From: Planctomycetota bacterium
GTDB lineage: Bacteria; Planctomycetota; GCA-002687715; DRQF01
Direction of reading: 5' to 3'
Assembly: GCA_036479435.1 (NCBI GenBank)
Contig: JAZGFI010000063.1
Location: 1 to 34,489 of the forward strand
DNA: 34,489 nt
Of the stretch, positions 1-5,853 are shown one piece after another. Made by a program: the position numbers and the translations under genes. The notes beneath the pieces are model-generated. The model did no database searches and had not been told where the DNA came from. It saw only the letters and a list, made by a program, of their open reading frames with translations. How positions within the stretch are numbered: the first letter of the stretch is position 1; the number at the start of each line of letters is the position of its first letter.

Positions 1-10
1 CGGCACACAC

Positions 11-76
11 ACTTAACGAGTTCTCATTCAGCTGCGGGCCGCGAAGCGGACCGTCCGCTGGAATGAGCTGTTAGGT
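11..76 (-). repeat. attC site (66 bp)
   Basis: Minus strand reads ACCTAAC-AGCTC-ATTCCAGC...GCTGAAT-GAGAACTC-GTTAAGT: R'' (RYYYAAC), L'' with extra C, L', R' (GTTRRRY). The extra base makes the minus strand the top strand. Confidence 0.95.
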
Positions 77-534
77 GTTGAGCACGGCCGGGAAGGCGAC
101 TCAAAAAACAACTGCGCCAGCAACGAAGAGACTGCCGAAGCTGAGGTGGATTGTCCAGTGTTTGTTGCGACAGAACACAGCGACACCGAGACGCGTGCCC
201 GGCCGACCGGCTACAGCTCGGCGAAGCCGTGGTGGAAGATTGCGAAACCCGAGCTACCAACGCCGCGACAAAGACACTGACGCCGGAACAAACGATGGCG
301 AGCCCCGGGGAGAGGTGCCGCAGAGTTGGGGACACCGAAAGCCAGATGCGCGGGTGCGAAACCGATTGGCAACGACGAAGGGTTCGTGACCGCACGCGAT
401 GACACCGCGAAGAGCAAAGACCAAAACAGAGAGAATGGCGGGAAGAGTTTTTGGCTGGCGGCGCCAGGAACACGCGTCGGAGGCTTGGTTGCCACAGCCG
501 CTAAGAGAACCGCCCCTAATCACCCGGCACACAC
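77..534 (-). ncRNA. Candidate structured ncRNA, body of gene-less cassette 5 (17-540, 524 bp)
   Basis: No credible CDS. Nested minus-strand helices with many G.U pairs: 87-92:523-528, 93-102:507-516, 107-116:493-502, 120-128:484-492, 190-200:468-478, 214-221:249-256, 395-400:404-409. Confidence 0.6.
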
Positions 535-600
535 ACTTAACGAGTTCTCATTCAGCTGCGGGCCGCGAAGCGGACCGTCCGCTGGAATGAGCTGTTAGGT
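535..600 (-). repeat. attC site (66 bp)
   Basis: Identical to 11-76. Confidence 0.95.
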
Positions 601-1059
601 GTTGAGCACGGCCGGGAAGGCGACTCAAACAACAACTGCGCCAGCAACGAAGAGATTGCCGAAGCTGGGGCAGATTGTCCAGTGGTTGTTGCGACAGAGC
701 ACAGCGACACCGAGACGCGTGCCCGGCCGACCGGCTACAGCTCGGCGGAGCCGTGGTGGAAGATTGCGAAACCCGAGCTACCAACGCCGCGACAAAGACC
801 CATGCGCCGGAACAAACGATGGCGAGCCCCGGGGAGAGGTGCCGCAGAGTTGGGGACACCGAAAGGCAGACGCGCGGGTGCGAAACCGATTGGCAACGAC
901 GAAGGGTTGGTGACCACGCGCAATGACGCCACGAAGATCGAAGACCAAGAACAAAGAGAACGGCGGGAGGAGTTTTTGGCTGGCGGCGCCAGGAACACGC
1001 GTCGGAGGCTTGGTTGCCGCAGCCCCTAAGAGAACCGCCCCTAATCACCCGGCACACAC
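601..1059 (-). ncRNA. Candidate structured ncRNA, body of gene-less cassette 4 (541-1065, 525 bp)
   Basis: Paralog of 77-534 (about 28 differences by hand count, including a 1-nt insertion that shifts the spurious ORF frame). Same helices mostly retained. Confidence 0.6.
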
Positions 1060-1125
1060 ACTTAACGAGTGCTCATTCAGCTGCGGTGCGCGTAGCGGGC
1101 CGCCCGCTGCAATGAGTAGTTGGGC
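1060..1125 (-). repeat. attC site (66 bp) of the NYN cassette
   Basis: R'' GCCCAAC (minus, 1125-1119) is complementary to the cassette's entry GTTGGGC (minus, 1928-1922). Same architecture as the other attC sites. Confidence 0.93.
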
Positions 1126-1134
1126 AGCCGAGAA

Positions 1135-1797
1135 TCAACGACCGCCGCCACGGTTTGGCTTTGGACACTTGCTCGTTAGCCCGTCGATATGCTCGAATAG
1201 GTCGTCGCCTACACCCTGCCACATAGGGTCAAGCACAACATCGATGCCTTCCCTTCGCGCAAATTTCGCGGCTGGCACGAAATCTGCGTCTCCAGCGACC
1301 ATGACGATGCGTTTGACAAAGCCCTTGAATGCCAAGGAAGCAATGTCGAGCCCCATCTTCATATCGACACCCTTCTGCCGCGCCTCGTAGGTGACGTCGG
1401 TATCAACCAAATCCTCTAACGATTTCTTTCCCGAGAGGAGGTCTTTGGTCACCGATGGTTTGATACTCCAGCCTGCGGGATGGTCGGCCAAACGACCGAA
1501 CCGCAGCGCCACTTTTCGCTGCCTCAATAGTTGCTGATGAAACGAATTACGAAACTGAAATAGGCCCGTTTTCGAGAAGTCGACCGCCTTCTTTGAGATC
1601 GGGTTGTGAGCTTTTTTGCTCAGCGGTGGACAGTCATAGAAGAAGATCCGATAGAGATCATTTTTCTCCGACAAGTGCGAAATGCACATCGTGAAGAGGT
1701 TCTTGGCAACGACCTCTGGCGAGTGATTCGCACCGTAGGTCGCCCGGTAGCGATAAAAAAAGAATCCTCCGTCGACCATTATTGCAGTCGGTGTCAT
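1135..1797 (-). CDS. NYN-domain (LabA/DUF88-like, PIN fold) putative ribonuclease; cassette 3 (1066-1927)
   Basis: Motifs VDGGF, RIFFYDCPP, QKGVDMKMGLD and GDADFVPAAKFARREG carry the acidic catalytic set. GAGGA RBS at 1802-1806. Confidence 0.9.
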   Translation of the reverse strand: MTPTAIMVDGGFFFYRYRATYGANHSPEVVAKNLFTMCISHLSEKNDLYRIFFYDCPPLSKKAHNPISKKAVDFSKTGLFQFRNSFHQQLLRQRKVALRFGRLADHPAGWSIKPSVTKDLLSGKKSLEDLVDTDVTYEARQKGVDMKMGLDIASLAFKGFVKRIVMVAGDADFVPAAKFARREGIDVVLDPMWQGVGDDLFEHIDGLTSKCPKPNRGGGR

Positions 1798-1808
1798 ATG
1801 GTCCTCAC

Positions 1809-1872
1809 AAAAAAACCCTCGGGCTTGGCACCGCTATGATAATTCGCGGAGCTTACTGCCGAGGGCGTTCGA
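1809..1872 (-). ncRNA. Candidate small leader RNA / attenuator upstream of the NYN gene
   Basis: Minus strand CCCTCGG-CAGTAA-GCTCCGC-(11-nt loop)-GCGGTGC-CAAGC-CCGAGGG-TTTTTTT: a two-tier hairpin ending in U7, between promoter and RBS. Confidence 0.55.
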
Positions 1873-1878
1873 TGCGAA

Positions 1879-1907
1879 AGTATAACGTCTCGACTGCCGC
1901 GCTGCAA
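1879..1907 (-). promoter_or_regulatory. Cassette-internal sigma70-type promoter
   Basis: TTGCAG (1907-1902), 17-bp spacer, TATACT (1884-1879). Confidence 0.7.
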
Positions 1908-1921
1908 ACCGCCCTCTGTCT

Positions 1922-1987
1922 GCCCAACGAGTTCTCATTCAGCTGCGGTGCGCGCAGCGGACCGTCCGCTGCAGGGAGCAGTTGGAC
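1922..1987 (-). repeat. attC site (66 bp) of cassette 2
   Basis: R'' GTCCAAC (minus, 1987-1981) matches the entry GTTGGAC at 3259-3253. Conserved L boxes. Confidence 0.93.
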
Positions 1988-2181
1988 AGCAGACGATCGA
2001 AGGCCAGCGACCAATCTACTCGCTCCGTCGATCCTACCGCCATTTGCGCGAATCCCATTTCGGGAAGACTGTGAGAGCGCGGGAAGCTCTCACGCTCCTA
2101 AATGTTGCTGCGTGCAACTTGTCTTCACGATAGCCCCCCATGGGGTATCCTCCGAACCAGTCCACTGGAGGGAGCTTAGCG

Positions 2182-3174
2182 ATGTTACTATCTGGATTGG
2201 TTCTGTGGATCGCTTTCGGCATCTACATGTTAGTTCTTTGCGTAATCTTCGAGCGAAATCGTCATTCGGCCAACCTGTCTATCTACGCGGCGATTGGGGC
2301 GGCCTTCGTTGCCGTCGCTGCATTTGCGGCCTGGTATCCGGCAAAGGCGTGGATGTTAGACATCCCCAGGAATTTGGATTCAATGGCCAAATTCGGGGAC
2401 GCTACCGCAGGTCTATTTGCTGGAGCTGGTCTGATATTTCTTACGGTTAGCATTGGTCTTCAGGCCTGGGAGCTTTCGCAGAATCGCGTTGAGCAAAGAG
2501 AGGCAAACCGACAGTCGCTGATTCAAAACCAGATTGAACACCTAAAGATGCGATTTTCGCTAATGCAAGCGAGACAGGAACGGATGCACGTCGTTGCGGA
2601 AAGCGGTGGATTCTTCGCACCTGCATTCGCGGGATCGGAGTCGGATATTACTGATGAAACACATGACGGCCTTTTGGTTTTGGCTCGCCTTCCAATCCGC
2701 AAAGTCGGCAACGTAGGGGAGTGCAGGGTTGCGATCTTCGAACCGCAATTTGACAAATGCATGCAGTTCACATTGGCCAACGGCGACGCAATGCTGTTTC
2801 CACCGGGGCTTTTTCCTGAGGTCGTGCCCTTACCTCAGGAAGAAGCGAGCGAAGACCAAGACCGCGAAGTTCTTTTTCGAATTATCCCGCAGCAGTTGGG
2901 CACCGGGTACTTGCAAGGCGAACTCAAGTTAAGAACGAATGCTAGTCAGGCTCCATATGCTGTGGAAACGGTTTTCCTGATTGGCCTGAGAGTCTTCATC
3001 AACAAAGAGTCTAAGCGCCGAGTTGATATCGACGTAATCTCGACAACAAGGCGGCTCTTCGAATCCTGGAATCTCTCCCCAGCGCCCCAACTTACGGATG
3101 AAGTCGCCGAAGAAGAACTGCAAGAGCTATCCACCAAGATCGCAGCAACTCAGTCGCGCGACTGGTACGCGTAA
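2182..3174 (+). CDS. Membrane protein of unknown function (3 N-terminal TM helices plus coiled coil), antisense within cassette 2 (1928-3258)
   Basis: ORF 2140-3174; ATG 2182 follows GGAGGGAG. The segment FGDATAGLF...LQAWELSQNRVEQRE resembles the TM/coiled-coil N-terminus of putAbiC-type cassette proteins (recalled, not searched). Confidence 0.75.
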   Translation: MLLSGLVLWIAFGIYMLVLCVIFERNRHSANLSIYAAIGAAFVAVAAFAAWYPAKAWMLDIPRNLDSMAKFGDATAGLFAGAGLIFLTVSIGLQAWELSQNRVEQREANRQSLIQNQIEHLKMRFSLMQARQERMHVVAESGGFFAPAFAGSESDITDETHDGLLVLARLPIRKVGNVGECRVAIFEPQFDKCMQFTLANGDAMLFPPGLFPEVVPLPQEEASEDQDREVLFRIIPQQLGTGYLQGELKLRTNASQAPYAVETVFLIGLRVFINKESKRRVDIDVISTTRRLFESWNLSPAPQLTDEVAEEELQELSTKIAATQSRDWYA

Positions 3175-3252
3175 CGACGTTGCTGTGTTGCCATGTGCCA
3201 AGAGACTCAGCAAGTCTCCAAAGTCGCCGGTGGTAATAAAGGAATCCCGTCT

Positions 3253-3318
3253 GTCCAACGAGTTCTCATTCAGCTGCGGGCCGCGGAGCGGACCGTCCGC
3301 TGGAATGAGCTGTTAGGT
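3253..3318 (-). repeat. attC site (66 bp) of cassette 1
   Basis: Near-identical to 11-76. Confidence 0.95.
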
Positions 3319-3776
3319 GTTGAGCACGGCCGGGAAGGCGACTCAAACAACAACTGCGCCAGCAACGAAGAGATTGCCGAAGCTGAGGCGGATTGTCCAG
3401 TGCTTGTTGCGCCAGAACACAGCGACACCGAGACGCGTGCCCGGCCGACCGGCTACAGCTCGGCGAAGCTGTGGCGGAAGATTGCGAAACCCGAACCACC
3501 AACGCCGCGACAAAGACCTGGACGTTGGAACAAACGACGGCGAGGCCAGCGACAACTGCCGCCGAGTTCGGGGCACTGAAGACCAAGATGCGCAGGTGCG
3601 AAAGCAACCGGCGTCGATGAGGGATTGATGACCGCACGCGATGACACCACGAAGAGCGAAGACCAAAACAAAGAGAATGGCGGGAGGAGTTTTTGGCTGG
3701 TGGCGTCAGGAACACGCGGCGGAGGCTTGGTTGCCGCAGCCGCTAAGAGAACCGCCCCTAATCACCCGGCACACAC
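3319..3776 (-). ncRNA. Candidate structured ncRNA, body of gene-less cassette 1 (3259-3782, 524 bp; first position after attI)
   Basis: Most divergent copy. Helix TAGCTCGG:CCGAGCTG becomes TGGTTCGG:CCGAGCTG (3491-3498:3456-3463); both changes become G.U pairs on the minus strand. Confidence 0.6.
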
Positions 3777-3795
3777 ACTTAACTCTAAGTCGATG
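3777..3795 (-). other. Putative attI site (crossover G|TT between 3783 and 3782)
   Basis: The cassette family sequence stops at GTTAAGT with no attC stem beyond it. Degenerate L box CATCGAC, 5-bp spacer TTAGA, R box GTTAAGT. About 200 bp from the intI stop. Confidence 0.75.
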
Positions 3796-3980
3796 GAACT
3801 GGATAGTACGGGAAAGCTGGGCGGTTGAGGAAGGTATTTGGGAAGTTCGGATTTGGGGGAGAGGCTTAAGTCGCTGTGGGTAGTTGGGTTGGAGGAGGTG
3901 GGTGGCGGGAATGGGCGGAGATATGTGGTCCAGATAGTGGGGAGACGGGTGGCTGGGGTTTGGTTGGTGGTTTGGGCGGA

Positions 3981-4979
3981 CTAGGTTGGGGGTAGGAAGT
4001 CGAGGGGGCTTTGGATGGGGCCTCGGAGTTGGTTGAGGACGTGGGTGTAGATCATGGTGGTTTCGAGGCTTTTGTGGCCGAGGAGTTCTTGGACGACGCG
4101 GATGTCGTTGCCTTGGATGAGGAGGTGGGTGGCGAAGGAGTGGCGGAAGGTGTGGCAGGTGACGCGGGAGTTGAGGCCGGCGAGTTGGGCGGCGATGGGG
4201 ACGGCTTTTTGGAGGACGGTTTCGTGGAGATGGTGGCGGCGGAGTTGGTTGGTTTCGAGGTCCAGGTAGTGGCGGTGGGCGGGGAAGAGCCATTGCCAGG
4301 GCCAGGACTGGCCGGCGGAGGGGGATTTTCGGTTGAAGGCGAATGGGAGTTCTACCCAGCCGGCACCGCTCTGGAGATCTTGCTCGTGTTGTTTTCTTAC
4401 TTGCTCGATGTGGGCTCGGAGGGGAGCGTGGAGGGAGGCGGGCAAGATGGTGAGACGGTCCTTGCCGCCTTTGCCGTGACGAATGGTGATTTGTCCGGAT
4501 TCGAAGTTGAGGTCTTTGATGCGGAGCTGGAGGCATTCGAGGAGGCGAAGACCCGAGCCGTAGAGCAAGGAAGCGGCGAGGTGTTTTTCTCCTTGGAGCT
4601 TGGCGAGGACGGCGGTGACTTCGGGAACGGTGAGGACATTTGGGATGCGCTTGGGACGCTTGGCCCGAACGATGGAGTTGAGCCAGGGAAGATCCACCTC
4701 AAGGACTTCTCGGTAGAGGTAGAGGATGGCAGAGAGTGCTTGGTTTTGGGTTGAGGCGGCCACCTTGCGAGCGACGGCTAGGTAAGTGAGAAATTCGGTG
4801 ACTTCCTTGGCGCCGAGGTCGCGCGGGTGACGTAGATGGTGGAATCGGATGAATCGGCGAATCCAAGAGCAGTAGGCTTTTTCGGTGCGGCGGCTGGCGT
4901 GACGAAGGCGTAGAGAGTTGCGCACTTGGTCGAGGAGTCGCGGTTTCGGGCTTCGGTCGGATGGAGTTGGAGAGTCCAT
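3981..4979 (-). CDS. intI: Integron integrase (tyrosine recombinase)
   Basis: N-terminal LLDQVR...TEKAYCSWIRRFIRFH; catalytic R (GSGLR), HxxR (HTFRHSFATH), H/Y (LGH..TTMIYTH); integron-specific insertion VELPFAFNRKSPSAGQSWPWQWLFPA...RRHH. Confidence 0.97.
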   Translation of the reverse strand: MDSPTPSDRSPKPRLLDQVRNSLRLRHASRRTEKAYCSWIRRFIRFHHLRHPRDLGAKEVTEFLTYLAVARKVAASTQNQALSAILYLYREVLEVDLPWLNSIVRAKRPKRIPNVLTVPEVTAVLAKLQGEKHLAASLLYGSGLRLLECLQLRIKDLNFESGQITIRHGKGGKDRLTILPASLHAPLRAHIEQVRKQHEQDLQSGAGWVELPFAFNRKSPSAGQSWPWQWLFPAHRHYLDLETNQLRRHHLHETVLQKAVPIAAQLAGLNSRVTCHTFRHSFATHLLIQGNDIRVVQELLGHKSLETTMIYTHVLNQLRGPIQSPLDFLPPT

Positions 4980-5241
4980 GGAGTCGTCGAGTCATCAGAG
5001 ACTTGGTTTTAGATGCACACTGCGGCTTGCATCCCAAAGTAAGTCGTTGGGAATGAGCCGAAGTAACGCACTACTTAGTAATGGCCCGCTAGATAGAGGC
5101 CGCGATGGGCTTGAATGTGGAGGAGGCGACCGAAAGTGATGCGCACCGGGCCGACCCGGCGAGCACAGAGTCCGGCGCGCTGAGCGGCTTAGACCTCCGC
5201 CGCTCGGTCGCGACCTCGGCCATCCTTGTTGGCCTGGGATC

Positions 5242-5658
5242 TTAAGTCGCTTGGGCGGTTTTGAAGCCGGAGCTGCCGACGACGAGGGCTACGGAGATGG
5301 CGACGTAGAGGCCGACGACGAGGTAGGGGTAGTCAGTGGCGGCGTATTTGCGGACGGCGAAGCCGAGGCCCATCATGAGGGGGATGAGGAAGTATAGGAT
5401 TGGGTGGAGGGCGAAGAAGAACCAGTCTTGTTCGGGGCGGCGGGCGATGAAGCCGGCGGTTCTTTTGGCGCTCTTACGGAGGACGAATTTGCCCTTCGCG
5501 AAGCCCATGCCAGCACCGAGGACGATAGCGAGGATGGCGATCCAGGTGGGCTCAGTGTTGGCGAAATGCGGGATGAGGCCTCGGTAGAGCAGAAAGACGG
5601 CGACGGCGAGCCAAATGAAAATGGCCAGGGAGATTCGTCCGTTTCGGGAGAGTTTCAC
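5242..5658 (-). CDS. Small integral membrane protein (about 4 TM), function unknown
   Basis: 138-aa ORF with four hydrophobic segments. Confidence 0.7.
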   Translation of the reverse strand: MKLSRNGRISLAIFIWLAVAVFLLYRGLIPHFANTEPTWIAILAIVLGAGMGFAKGKFVLRKSAKRTAGFIARRPEQDWFFFALHPILYFLIPLMMGLGFAVRKYAATDYPYLVVGLYVAISVALVVGSSGFKTAQAT

Positions 5659-5853
5659 GGTGGGGGCTTCCGTTTCTTGGCTGAGGCCTTGAAGAAAAAG
5701 GGACTTTCGGGGGGATGGGAAAGATCCTGCCTCGAAGTCCTGATTGAAGCGGGTTAAAACCGTTCCGCCTCAGCTTAACTCGCTTCGCCGTTTTTGCCAT
5801 GTGGGCCGCTTGAGGTCTGCTTCTGCCTCCCAAATGACTTTCCGGATCGAACG

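What the first reader, a model, noticed from the sequence alone, without database searches (positions are those of the whole stretch)
17..3782. Family of gene-less integron cassettes that appear to encode a ~460-nt structured RNA
Seen: four of six visible cassettes (17-540, 541-1065, 3259-3782, and a fourth starting at 16 and leaving the window) are one ~524-bp family with no credible CDS. Read on the minus strand (the array's sense direction), the two ends of the body zip into a long rod: GCCGGG:CCCGGC (523-528:87-92), GGGGCGGUUC:GAGUCGCCUU (507-516:93-102), AGCGGCUGYG:CGCAGUUGUU (493-502:107-116), GCAACCAAG:CUUCGUUGC (484-492:120-128, one C.C mismatch), then GACGCGUGUUC:GGGCACGCGUC (468-478:190-200). 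Inside are further hairpins (249-256:214-221, 404-409:395-400); a cUUCGg loop lies on a side branch near 138-145. Many pairs are G.U, which would be A.C mismatches on the plus strand, so the fold is strand-specific and matches the A-poor minus strand. Several differences between copies keep the pairing (UAGCUCGG to UGGUUCGG opposite CCGAGCUG; CGCGGU to CGUGGU opposite AUCGCG), though a few break pairs. Established: gene-less cassettes occur in Vibrio, Xanthomonas and Treponema arrays, some acting as promoters. Inference: these are amplified, mobile structured ncRNA modules (decoy, sponge, regulatory or defence RNA) that I cannot assign to any known family.
Basis: partly seen in the sequence, partly recalled or inferred. 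Interest (0 to 1): 0.9.

Follow-up and report, generated by a model that had tools for sequence, protein, structure and literature searches.

The report
Amplified gene-less integron cassette family
A 524-base integron cassette that encodes no protein has multiplied to perhaps twenty copies in one bacterium's gene-capture arrays; the tests run here give no support for the proposed folded RNA, and non-coding cassette families of this kind are already known from Vibrio.

Summary
Window 1-3782 is the start of an integron array: intI at 3981-4979 on the minus strand, attI at about 3783-3980. Three full copies and one 16-base stub of a 524-bp cassette lie in it. Each copy is a 60-bp attC plus a 464-bp body.

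The body is non-coding. It shows no codon periodicity, no synonymous excess in any of six frames, and no Pfam hit.

Contig depths in one public run suggest roughly 20-25 copies. Diverged copies or relics lie on four other contigs.

The structured-RNA reading fails its own tests:
- Whole-body and 120-nt-window folding energies match shuffles on both strands.
- There is no Rfam match.
- The 80%-identical copy keeps 4 changed rod pairs and breaks 9, with no compensatory pair.
- An incompatible plus-strand fold scores equally well.

No homologue was found outside this species, so a deep covariation test is impossible.

Best reading: a new member of the known class of paralogous non-coding integron cassettes (Boucher 2006). 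It is most likely a passenger multiplied by the integron's own recombination. An 82-nt attC-proximal module may act in cis.

The parts
1..16 (-). First 16 bases (in array sense) of a further family copy that leaves the window
   Evidence: Identical to the right end of the other copies
17..540 (-). Family copy 1 (cassette: attC 17-76 plus body 77-540)
541..1065 (-). Family copy 2 (525 bp, one extra base; 95% identical to copy 1)
3259..3782 (-). Family copy 3, the first cassette next to attI (90% identical to copy 1; its middle is only 80% identical)
77..158 (.). 82-nt attC-proximal module (also at 601-682 and 3319-3400). It is the most widely kept part of the family. Invariant blocks TTGTCCAG (151-158) and TGCC(132-135)...AG flank an 11-nt hypervariable gap
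   Evidence: Alignment of 6 places, including relics on C82 and C164
87..128 (.).
484..528 (.). Right arm of the end-to-end complementarity
251..425 (.). Hypervariable middle of the body. Plus-strand T is 8%. Identity is 91% (c1/c2), 80% (c1/c3) and 41% (c1/C84)
1066..1927 (-). Unrelated cassette with a 220-aa NYN-domain ORF (1135-1797, minus)
1928..3258 (-). Unrelated cassette whose 344-aa ORF (2140-3174) lies on the plus strand, antisense to the array; no Pfam or NCBIfam hit
3783..3980 (-). attI region between intI and the first cassette. Plus strand is G 48%, C 9%
   Evidence: Family homology ends at 3782; composition
3981..4979 (-). Integron integrase gene intI, transcribed towards the cassette array
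   Evidence: TIGR02249 integron integrase, 435.6 bits against a cut-off of 265; Pfam Phage_integrase plus Phage_int_SAM_4

Best explanation
The repeats are copies of one gene-less integron cassette: a 60-bp attC plus a 464-bp non-coding body. It belongs to the known class of highly paralogous non-coding cassettes of chromosomal integrons.

Shown:
- It is a true cassette.
- It encodes no protein.
- It is amplified and confined to this species among what was searched.
- It sits first after attI in the window, and first after an attI-like junction on C84/C252.
- Its ends are conserved while its middle is free to vary.

Inferred mechanism: it behaves mainly as a passenger, or selfish cassette. IntI excises it and re-inserts it at attI. 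Recombination between copies makes tandem runs. Gene conversion near the attC sites keeps the ends alike. The only part that looks constrained in its own right is the 82-nt module next to the attC, which probably acts in cis at the DNA level. The end-to-end complementarity is an ancestral inverted repeat that is decaying, not an RNA rod under selection.
For: Cassette status:
- The attC sites and a bona fide integron integrase are present.
- The attI junction lies at 3782/3783.
- The core-site halves at the two ends of the cassette differ together between the window type and the C84 type (read).

Non-coding.

Amplification:
- In run X3, single-copy contigs have depth 72 and 82.9. Family pieces have depths 1190.3, 1011.2, 362.6, 234.6 and 205.4 (table 8).
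- Bins over the family sum to 1725-2775, against 72-83 elsewhere (table 2).
- A 3780-to-3257 'goes back 524' joint in X8 and X9 shows tandem copies.
- Assembly contigs break inside the family (C63 start, C84 end, C252 start).

First position after attI or an attI-like junction: window, and C84/C252.

Conserved ends, free middle.

The inverted repeat is decaying:
- End-duplex z is -2.65 to -3.53 in the window copies but -1.47 (minus) and -0.54 (plus) in the C84 copy.
- In C84, 4 changed pairs are kept and 9 broken. I estimate about one third kept for unconstrained single changes.

Restricted range:
- 0 of 400 other genomes of the phylum and 0 real matches in 22 other genomes of the order.
- No exact match to two conserved blocks in genome contigs. 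One chance match in metagenome contigs.
- Nothing in viral contigs, plasmids or phages.
- One ORF-derived look-alike among 5.8 billion proteins.

Precedent: Boucher 2006 (PMC1382264, passages read). It reports non-coding cassette families with up to 45 copies, found only in close relatives, and proposed to be selfish or regulatory.
Against: - No direct evidence of excision or insertion. The amplification could come from unequal crossing-over alone.
- The copy number rests on k-mer depths of short contigs, and the tool warns that these are not copy numbers.
- A purely selfish reading does not explain the strong plus-strand skew (A 28%, T 12%, against 21/21 genome-wide). The non-homologous C84 middle also keeps purine richness (59%). 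Recent changes add T rather than remove it (9 gains, 3 losses of 33 polarised changes), which suggests the skew is maintained or ancestral.
- In the 82-nt module, invariant blocks flank a hypervariable gap. This points to selection on something, so 'passenger' may be incomplete.
- The end complementarity is statistically real in the commonest type.
Confidence: 0.45

Rival explanations
1. Cis-regulatory cassette. The conserved 82-nt module next to the attC is an outward-facing promoter, or another protein-binding site, on the array's sense (minus) strand. It would set transcription of the next cassette, as shown for gene-less cassettes of Vibrio and Treponema. The rest of the body would be a spacer.
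For: - The module is kept in 6 of 6 places aligned. These include two relics (C82, C164) that lack the rest of the family.
- Conservation does not fall steadily with distance from the attC. The block furthest from it (TTGTCCAG) is invariant, while the 11 columns before it have no invariant position.
- Read by eye on the minus strand, this gives TGGACA (157-152), a 17-nt spacer that contains the variable gap, then CAnnCT (134-129). The A at position 2 and the T at position 6 are kept in all six.
- In 3 of 4 cases with an unrelated downstream cassette, that cassette has a sense-strand ORF.
- Precedents: Blanco 2024 (PMC11014356, abstract and passages) found sense-strand promoter activity in most of 29 gene-less cassettes. 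PMC6557892 was seen as a search listing only.
Against: - The sigma-70 consensus scan finds no site inside any family copy. The single site in 1-5200 lies at 1908-1879.
- The putative -10 matches TATAAT at only 2-3 of 6 positions.
- Both strands are poor in one of A or T.
- Copies lie in tandem (17-1065; joints), where a promoter would only drive another copy.
- The cassette downstream of copy 3 carries its ORF on the other strand.
- Most cassette ORFs are sense-oriented anyway.
- There are no RNA data.
Confidence: 0.22
2. The minus (sense) strand is transcribed into a ~460-nt structured RNA. Its two ends zip into a G.U-rich rod, and it acts as a decoy, sponge, regulator or defence RNA.
For: - The rod is in the MFE and centroid structures of the minus strand.
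- End-duplex z is -2.65 to -3.53, with 0-5 of 400 shuffles as good.
- There are 10 G.U pairs and no A.C among 46 rod pairs in copy 1.
- The two arms lie in the conserved parts of the body.
- One hairpin (about 152-186) has one true U-A to C-G double change in C84.
- Integron cassettes can carry an sRNA: sRNA-Xcc1 (passages of PMC12444791).
Against: - Whole-body minus-strand MFE z is -0.51, -0.06, -1.50 and +0.78 for c1, c2, c3 and C84.
- No 120-nt window has |z| of 2 or more.
- There is no Rfam match at E up to 10.
- C84 changes 13 rod pairs: 4 kept, 9 broken, none compensatory.
- The c1-to-c3 substitutions are not structure-preserving.
- A different plus-strand consensus fold without the rod scores the same: 93.3% against 94.7% of cells paired, and 10 against 9 double-change pairs.
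- The relics on C82 and C164 keep the left arm without any right arm.
- The sense strand is only 11.6% A, which is unusual for structured RNAs, whose loops are typically A-rich (general knowledge).
- By my own estimate, T-poverty of the plus strand alone makes about two thirds of transition mismatches G.U on the minus strand. Ten of ten then has p of about 0.02.
Confidence: 0.1
3. The functional strand is the plus strand. This is the attC bottom strand: purine-rich, with A 28% and T 12%. It would act either as an antisense structured RNA or as the single-stranded DNA of the excised cassette. The composition and the arms flanking the attC would then help the recombination hairpin to form or persist.
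For: - The skew is strongest in the hypervariable middle (T 8%). Purine richness persists in the non-homologous C84 middle.
- The skew is not produced by current mutation bias.
- In a tandem or circular context the arms flank the attC, and the CCCGGC/GCCGGG helix extends its stem in the plus-strand DNA fold (z -2.30, 1 of 200 shuffles as good).
- G > C ~ A > U is the usual composition of structured RNAs in GC-rich organisms (general knowledge).
- Weinberg 2017 (PMC5737381, passages) notes that ssDNA and RNA motifs in integrons cannot be told apart by sequence analysis.
Against: - Plus-strand MFE z is -0.10, -1.49, -1.43 and +0.17.
- On the plus strand, 11 of the 46 rod positions do not pair.
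- An unrelated attC in the window also has a few extra pairs beyond its core sites, so the extension is not special.
- No promoter was found.
- Nothing here tests recombination.
Confidence: 0.1
4. Relic of something else: either a decayed protein-coding cassette, or a MITE-like element with terminal inverted repeats that was captured as a cassette and then copied by the integron.
For: - Imperfect inverted repeats of about 45 bp lie at the two ends of the body.
- The size and non-coding nature resemble MITEs (general knowledge).
- There is weak 86-nt internal self-similarity (lag 86, z 3.94; the 95th and 99th percentiles of the shuffle maxima are 3.60 and 4.12).
Against: - Every copy found in the genome is attC-associated; none lies outside arrays.
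- No target-site duplication is visible.
- Searches with two of the long ORFs find only one family-derived ORF, and there is no Pfam hit.
- Ends far better conserved than the middle do not fit uniform neutral decay.
Confidence: 0.08

Closest known systems
Highly paralogous non-coding cassette families of Vibrio chromosomal integrons (Boucher et al. 2006, PMC1382264; passages read)
   Same: attC-bounded cassettes with no ORF and no codon-like substitution pattern. Many paralogues in one array (45 in V. vulnificus CMCP6, 34 in YJ016). Homologues occur only in close relatives or not at all. Gene conversion, selfishness, and promoter or RNA roles were all proposed.
   Different: This family is GC-rich (about 60%) and strongly strand-skewed. 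It has conserved ends around a hypervariable middle, and complementary ends. It sits in an integron whose intI points into the array. The host is not a Vibrio, and the family was not found in any of 400 other genomes of its phylum.
Promoter-bearing gene-less cassettes of Vibrionaceae superintegrons (Blanco et al. 2024, PMC11014356; abstract and passages) and ORF-less cassettes of oral Treponema integrons (PMC6557892; search listing only)
   Same: Gene-less cassettes inside arrays. The conserved module next to the attC faces the next cassette.
   Different: Promoter activity was measured there and not here. No sigma-70-like site was found in this family. The tandem copies are hard to explain as promoters.
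sRNA-Xcc1 cassette of Xanthomonas integrons (Chen et al. 2011, cited in PMC12444791; passages read)
   Same: An integron cassette that carries a non-coding RNA gene. This shows that cassette-borne RNAs exist.
   Different: sRNA-Xcc1 is a small RNA next to symE in the same cassette and is expressed from its own signals. Here there is no partner gene, no evidence of a transcript, and the proposed RNA is about 460 nt.
Amplified gene-less cassette families noted earlier in this scan (e1-2978872 and e1-2978890 in Gemmata; e1-6843618; e1-7724323)
   Same: Non-coding cassettes of 400-500 bp that fill a large share of an array in GC-rich or non-Vibrio bacteria.
   Different: No sequence similarity to this family. 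Those notes are unchecked AI notes, and I did not re-examine their loci.
DUF1874 motif (Weinberg et al. 2017, PMC5737381; passages read)
   Same: A structured motif recurring between consecutive genes, suspected to be an attC-type ssDNA structure. It is a reminder that DNA and RNA folds in integrons cannot be told apart by sequence analysis.
   Different: That motif has covariation support from many sequences and lies between ORFs. This family has none and is itself the whole cassette.

Membership tests
Integron gene cassette | Bounded by attC sites with inverse core sites (RYYYAAC ... GTTRRRY) that form an imperfect palindrome | tested here: met
   There are five homologous attC sites in the window. 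The core sites were read. The plus-strand DNA fold gives the attC hairpin. The core-site consensus is recalled knowledge.
Integron gene cassette | Lies in an array next to attI and an integron integrase gene | tested here: met
   TIGR02249 scores 435.6 bits against a cut-off of 265 for 3981-4979. Family homology stops at 3782, 199 bases from the gene.
Integron gene cassette | Excised and inserted by IntI | not testable with these tools
   Indirect evidence only: tandem copies, first position in two arrays, and the same cassette in several arrays.
Paralogous non-coding cassette families (Boucher 2006) | No ORF with coding signature; substitutions without a codon pattern | tested here: met
Paralogous non-coding cassette families (Boucher 2006) | Several to many paralogues within the arrays of one genome | tested here: met
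   The assembly holds 3 full copies and a stub in the window, 1 full copy on C84/C252, and relics on C82 and C164. Contig depths in run X3 suggest roughly 20-25 copies (inference).
Paralogous non-coding cassette families (Boucher 2006) | Homologues only in very close relatives or none | tested here: met
   Not found in those searched. Runs of 6 studies hold the stretch at near identity.
Promoter-bearing gene-less cassettes (Blanco 2024) | Promoter activity, mostly on the sense strand | tested here: inconclusive
   The consensus scan finds no site in the family. A weak TGGACA-17-CAnnCT arrangement is conserved in 6 of 6 sequences (read by eye). Activity itself cannot be tested here.
Known structured RNA family (Rfam) | Match to a covariance model | tested here: not met
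   0 matches at E up to 10 in 1-5200, both strands.
Novel structured RNA | Folding energy below that of dinucleotide shuffles | tested here: not met
   z ranges from -1.50 to +0.78 for four copies on both strands. All 120-nt windows have |z| below 2. Only the end-to-end duplex stands out.
Novel structured RNA | Covariation that preserves base pairs | tested here: inconclusive
   Only four alignable sequences exist. The rod has 0 compensatory pairs; C84 keeps 4 changed pairs and breaks 9. The two strands' incompatible folds score alike. The random-placement control gives z -0.8.
MITE / non-autonomous transposon | Terminal inverted repeats with target-site duplications, and copies scattered outside arrays | tested here: not met
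   Inverted ends are present. No duplication is visible, and all copies are attC-associated.

The most novel reading that the evidence does not exclude
The cassette is not junk but a cis-acting 'super-cassette'. Its conserved arms flank and extend the attC. Together with a T-poor bottom strand, they fold the excised single strand into an almost full-length rod. This raises its own excision and re-insertion, letting a non-coding parasite overrun the integron. Alternatively, and equally unexcluded, the same rod is a new ~460-nt RNA class carried and amplified by integrons.
Probability: 0.12. Interest if true: 0.65.

Novelty: new member of a known kind. Interest (0 to 1): 0.3.

Why it matters
Non-coding cassettes can make up a large share of chromosomal integrons, and what they do is still open. 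Promoter activity has been shown in AT-rich Vibrio, but nothing is known for GC-rich hosts.

This family is a clean case from outside Vibrio. By depth it may be the commonest cassette type in the organism's arrays, though other types were not counted. It is first after attI in the window and at a second, attI-like junction. Its anatomy is simple: a conserved 82-nt module, complementary ends, and a free middle. That makes it a good substrate for testing three ideas: selfish spread, internal promoters, and RNA.

As it stands it adds an example to a known class. It does not establish a new RNA.

Tried and rejected
- Protein coding in any of six frames was rejected. A plus-strand frame that looked protein-like across diverged copies did not show third-position bias when I counted it by hand.
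- Rfam gave nothing.
- Searches for homologues to build a deep alignment all failed:
  - 60 relatives, 22 other genomes of the order (three hits of 31-43 nt at E 2e-4 to 9e-3, taken as chance), and 400 of the phylum (only 2 candidates scored per genome).
  - Two exact-pattern scans of genome contigs.
  - One scan of metagenome contigs, whose single hit L014 is unrelated sequence.
  - Viral contigs, plasmids and phages.
- Searching 5.8 billion proteins with two spurious ORFs as a proxy for DNA homologues gave one mosaic family copy, P0001, and nothing for the other ORF. The encoding DNA could not be fetched.
- Sequencing runs: no RNA holder was listed, so expression could not be examined. Contigs of four runs showed only variants already seen in the assembly, plus a few short unplaced ends.
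- Tandem Repeats Finder found no internal array. Segment-by-segment alignment of four 86-nt pieces was not significant.
- Intrinsic terminators: only weak consensus hits, as many as in shuffles.
- Relatives' integrons were examined for a comparable first cassette. G011 has the same intI-into-array layout, but its first cassette is coding. The G005 and G017 loci were uninformative.
- Earlier findings by place and by sequence gave nothing.
- A coordinate slip was corrected.

Full report
**What is there.** The left end of the window is the start of a chromosomal integron.
- The ORF at 3981-4979 on the minus strand is an integron integrase: TIGR02249 scores 435.6 bits against a cut-off of 265, with Pfam Phage_integrase and Phage_int_SAM_4.
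- Homology among the repeats stops at 3782, 199 bases from that gene. So 3783-3980 is the attI region, and the array runs leftwards. The minus strand is the array's sense strand, and intI points into the array.
- Five homologous ~60-bp attC sites divide 1-3782 into cassettes.
  - Three cassettes (17-540, 541-1065, 3259-3782) and a 16-base stub (1-16) belong to one family.
  - Cassette 1066-1927 carries a NYN-domain ORF on the minus strand.
  - Cassette 1928-3258 carries a 344-aa ORF of no known family on the plus strand.

**The family is non-coding.**
- GC content by codon phase is flat: 0.61/0.59/0.62 in copy 1 and 0.63/0.59/0.59 in copy 3. Four real genes of the window have GC2 of 0.40-0.42.
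- Substitutions between copies fall evenly on the three phases: 9/7/11 of 27, 15/16/17 of 48, and 14/19/20 of 53.
- None of the six frames has an excess of synonymous changes.
- Stop codons are not depleted against dinucleotide shuffles (plus strand 8, 6, 10 observed against 12.3, 10.9, 11.6 expected; minus strand 7 against about 4.2). The long ORFs (149-169 aa on the minus strand, 104 aa on the plus) are simply what a strand poor in A or T gives.
- These ORFs have no Pfam hit.
- A search of 5.8 billion proteins found only one other family-derived ORF.

**The family is larger than the window shows.**
- The assembly has a more diverged full copy at the end of contig C84. Its ends are about 80% identical and its middle about 41%.
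- That copy continues into the start of C252. There it abuts an attI-like sequence with no integrase; a protein kinase gene follows.
- Contigs C82 and C164 hold truncated relics.
- Contigs break inside the family.
- In public run X3, single-copy contigs of this locus have depth 72 and 82.9. Short contigs of the family have depths 1190, 1011, 363, 235 and 205 (table 8).
- A joint from 3780 back to 3257 in runs X8 and X9 shows tandem copies.
- I infer roughly 20-25 copies. The tool warns that such depths are not copy numbers.

**Range.** Outside this species nothing was found. The one metagenome pattern hit is unrelated sequence.

**The proposed fold.**
The five rod helices have 46 pairs: 35 Watson-Crick, 10 G.U and one C.C on the minus strand.
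- The minus-strand MFE and centroid structures contain the rod.
- The two ends of the body are more complementary than shuffled ends. As minus-strand RNA, z is -2.65 to -3.53 (0-5 of 400 shuffles as good). As plus-strand RNA, z is -1.66 to -2.86. With DNA parameters, z is -1.7 to -4.1.

Everything else expected of a structured RNA is missing.
- Whole-body folding energies are ordinary. Copy 1 gives -0.51 (minus) and -0.10 (plus). Copy 2 gives -0.06 and -1.49. Copy 3 gives -1.50 and -1.43. C84 gives +0.78 and +0.17.
- All fourteen 120-nt windows on each strand have |z| below 2.
- Rfam has no match at E up to 10.
- The C84 copy changes 13 of the 46 rod pairs. Four stay paired, all by a one-sided change. 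Nine break, and none is compensated. Its end duplex is no longer distinguishable from shuffles (z -1.47 and -0.54).
- The 47 substitutions between copies 1 and 3 lower the folding energy no more than the same substitutions placed at random (z -0.8 on both strands, 14 of 70).
- As a control on covariation counts, I compared the RNAalifold consensus of the plus strand, which lacks the rod and is incompatible with the minus-strand fold. It scores as well: 93.3% against 94.7% of cells paired, and 10 against 9 pairs with double changes. With four sequences such counts cannot discriminate.
- The relics on C82 and C164 keep the left arm with no right arm at all.

**The strand argument.** The body's plus strand has A 28% and T 12%, against 21% each in the genome.
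- The skew is strongest in the hypervariable middle (T 8%), so G.U pairing does not cause it.
- Given that skew, decayed positions of any inverted repeat will mostly read A.C on the plus strand and G.U on the minus. By my own estimate, ten of ten has p of about 0.02. The asymmetry is therefore weak and not independent evidence.
- The skew itself remains unexplained. Polarised changes among copies add T more often than they remove it (9 against 3, of 33). The non-homologous C84 middle is still purine-rich (59%).

**What looks constrained.**
- Identity between copy types is high at both ends and low in the middle.
- Six sequences, including the two relics, share an 82-nt module next to the attC (window 77-158). 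Invariant blocks TTGTCCAG and TGCCG.AG flank 11 columns with no invariant position.
- On the sense strand this reads TGGACA, 17 nt, CAnnCT. That is a weak promoter-like arrangement, which the consensus scan does not call. I treat it as a lead only.

**Comparison with what is known.**
- Boucher et al. 2006 (PMC1382264, passages read) described exactly this kind of thing in Vibrio. Non-coding cassettes tend to be paralogous, with up to 45 copies of one family. They have homologues only in close relatives. They may be homogenised by gene conversion, and they are either selfish or serve as promoters or RNAs.
- Blanco et al. 2024 (PMC11014356) then showed sense-strand promoter activity in most of 29 gene-less Vibrio cassettes.
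- A cassette-borne small RNA, sRNA-Xcc1, exists in Xanthomonas.
- Earlier notes of this scan list similar amplified gene-less families in Gemmata and other bacteria. I did not re-check those.
- This family meets every testable criterion of the Boucher class. It is a new member of a known kind, with some features of its own: it is GC-rich, it has a strong strand skew, its ends are complementary, its middle is hypervariable, and its intI is transcribed into the array.

**Verdict.**
- The amplified, mobile, gene-less cassette family is real.
- The structured-RNA interpretation is not supported by any test that could be run. It cannot be excluded, because the alignment is shallow and no RNA data exist (no RNA holder listed).
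- My best reading (0.45) is a passenger cassette. The integron's own recombination and recombination between copies multiply it, and its inverted repeat is decaying.
- The main rival (0.22) is a cis-regulatory role of the 82-nt module.
- RNA or single-strand DNA functions of either strand together get about 0.2.

Noticed in passing
window 3783-5700: The attI region and intI have an extreme strand skew. The attI plus strand is G 48% and C 9%. Plus-strand GC skew is +0.3 to +0.74 across 3700-5600. At intI third codon positions, C is 63% and G 10%, against 37% and 34% in the neighbouring phosphorylase gene. In the sense direction, the 200 nt after the intI stop are C-rich and G-poor, like a Rho-utilisation site (my reading from general knowledge).
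   Followed up: partly
L004 1500-2021 (C84 end) joined to L007 1-400 (C252 start): A second array ends with a diverged family copy. That copy abuts a sequence loosely similar to the window's attI but with no integrase. A protein kinase gene follows (Pkinase 1.8e-34). This looks like an integrase-less array that still has an attI-like junction.
   Followed up: partly
L005 1500-1710 (C82) and L025 / C164:5011-5145: These are truncated relics of the family. They keep only the attC (degenerate on C164) and the 82-130-nt attC-proximal module. Each is followed in the sense direction by an unrelated ORF.
   Followed up: partly
window 77-540: The body shows weak internal self-similarity at a lag of 86 nt (z 3.94; 95th and 99th percentiles of shuffle maxima are 3.60 and 4.12) and at 172 nt (z 2.8). 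This hints at an old internal duplication. Segment alignments were not significant, and TRF found nothing.
   Followed up: partly
window 1928-3258: This cassette's only long ORF (2140-3174, 344 aa, N-terminal hydrophobic stretches by eye) lies antisense to the array. It has no Pfam or NCBIfam match.
   Followed up: no
L004 1-1056 (C84): A DDE_Tnp_1 transposase ORF sits inside the second cassette array. It matches only profile positions 92-196 of 200 and follows another open frame, so the gene may be split or frameshifted.
   Followed up: no
L005 3-332 (C82): A Schlafen/AlbA_2-domain ORF lies in the cassette array upstream of the family relic. Such domains occur in defence-related proteins (general knowledge).
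   Followed up: no
L023 (G011:C220:4000-7231): A relative of the same order has a 58%-identical intI that also points into its cassette array. Its first cassette is coding. The contig ends in two 36-nt repeats 146 nt apart that may be further short cassettes.
   Followed up: partly
window 219-227 and attC apex 39-49: The plus strand carries the motif GCGAAGC at the attC apex and again in the body. CGAAR occurs 8 times in the body of copy 1, against about 2 expected from composition. The count and the expectation were done by hand, not by a tool.
   Followed up: no
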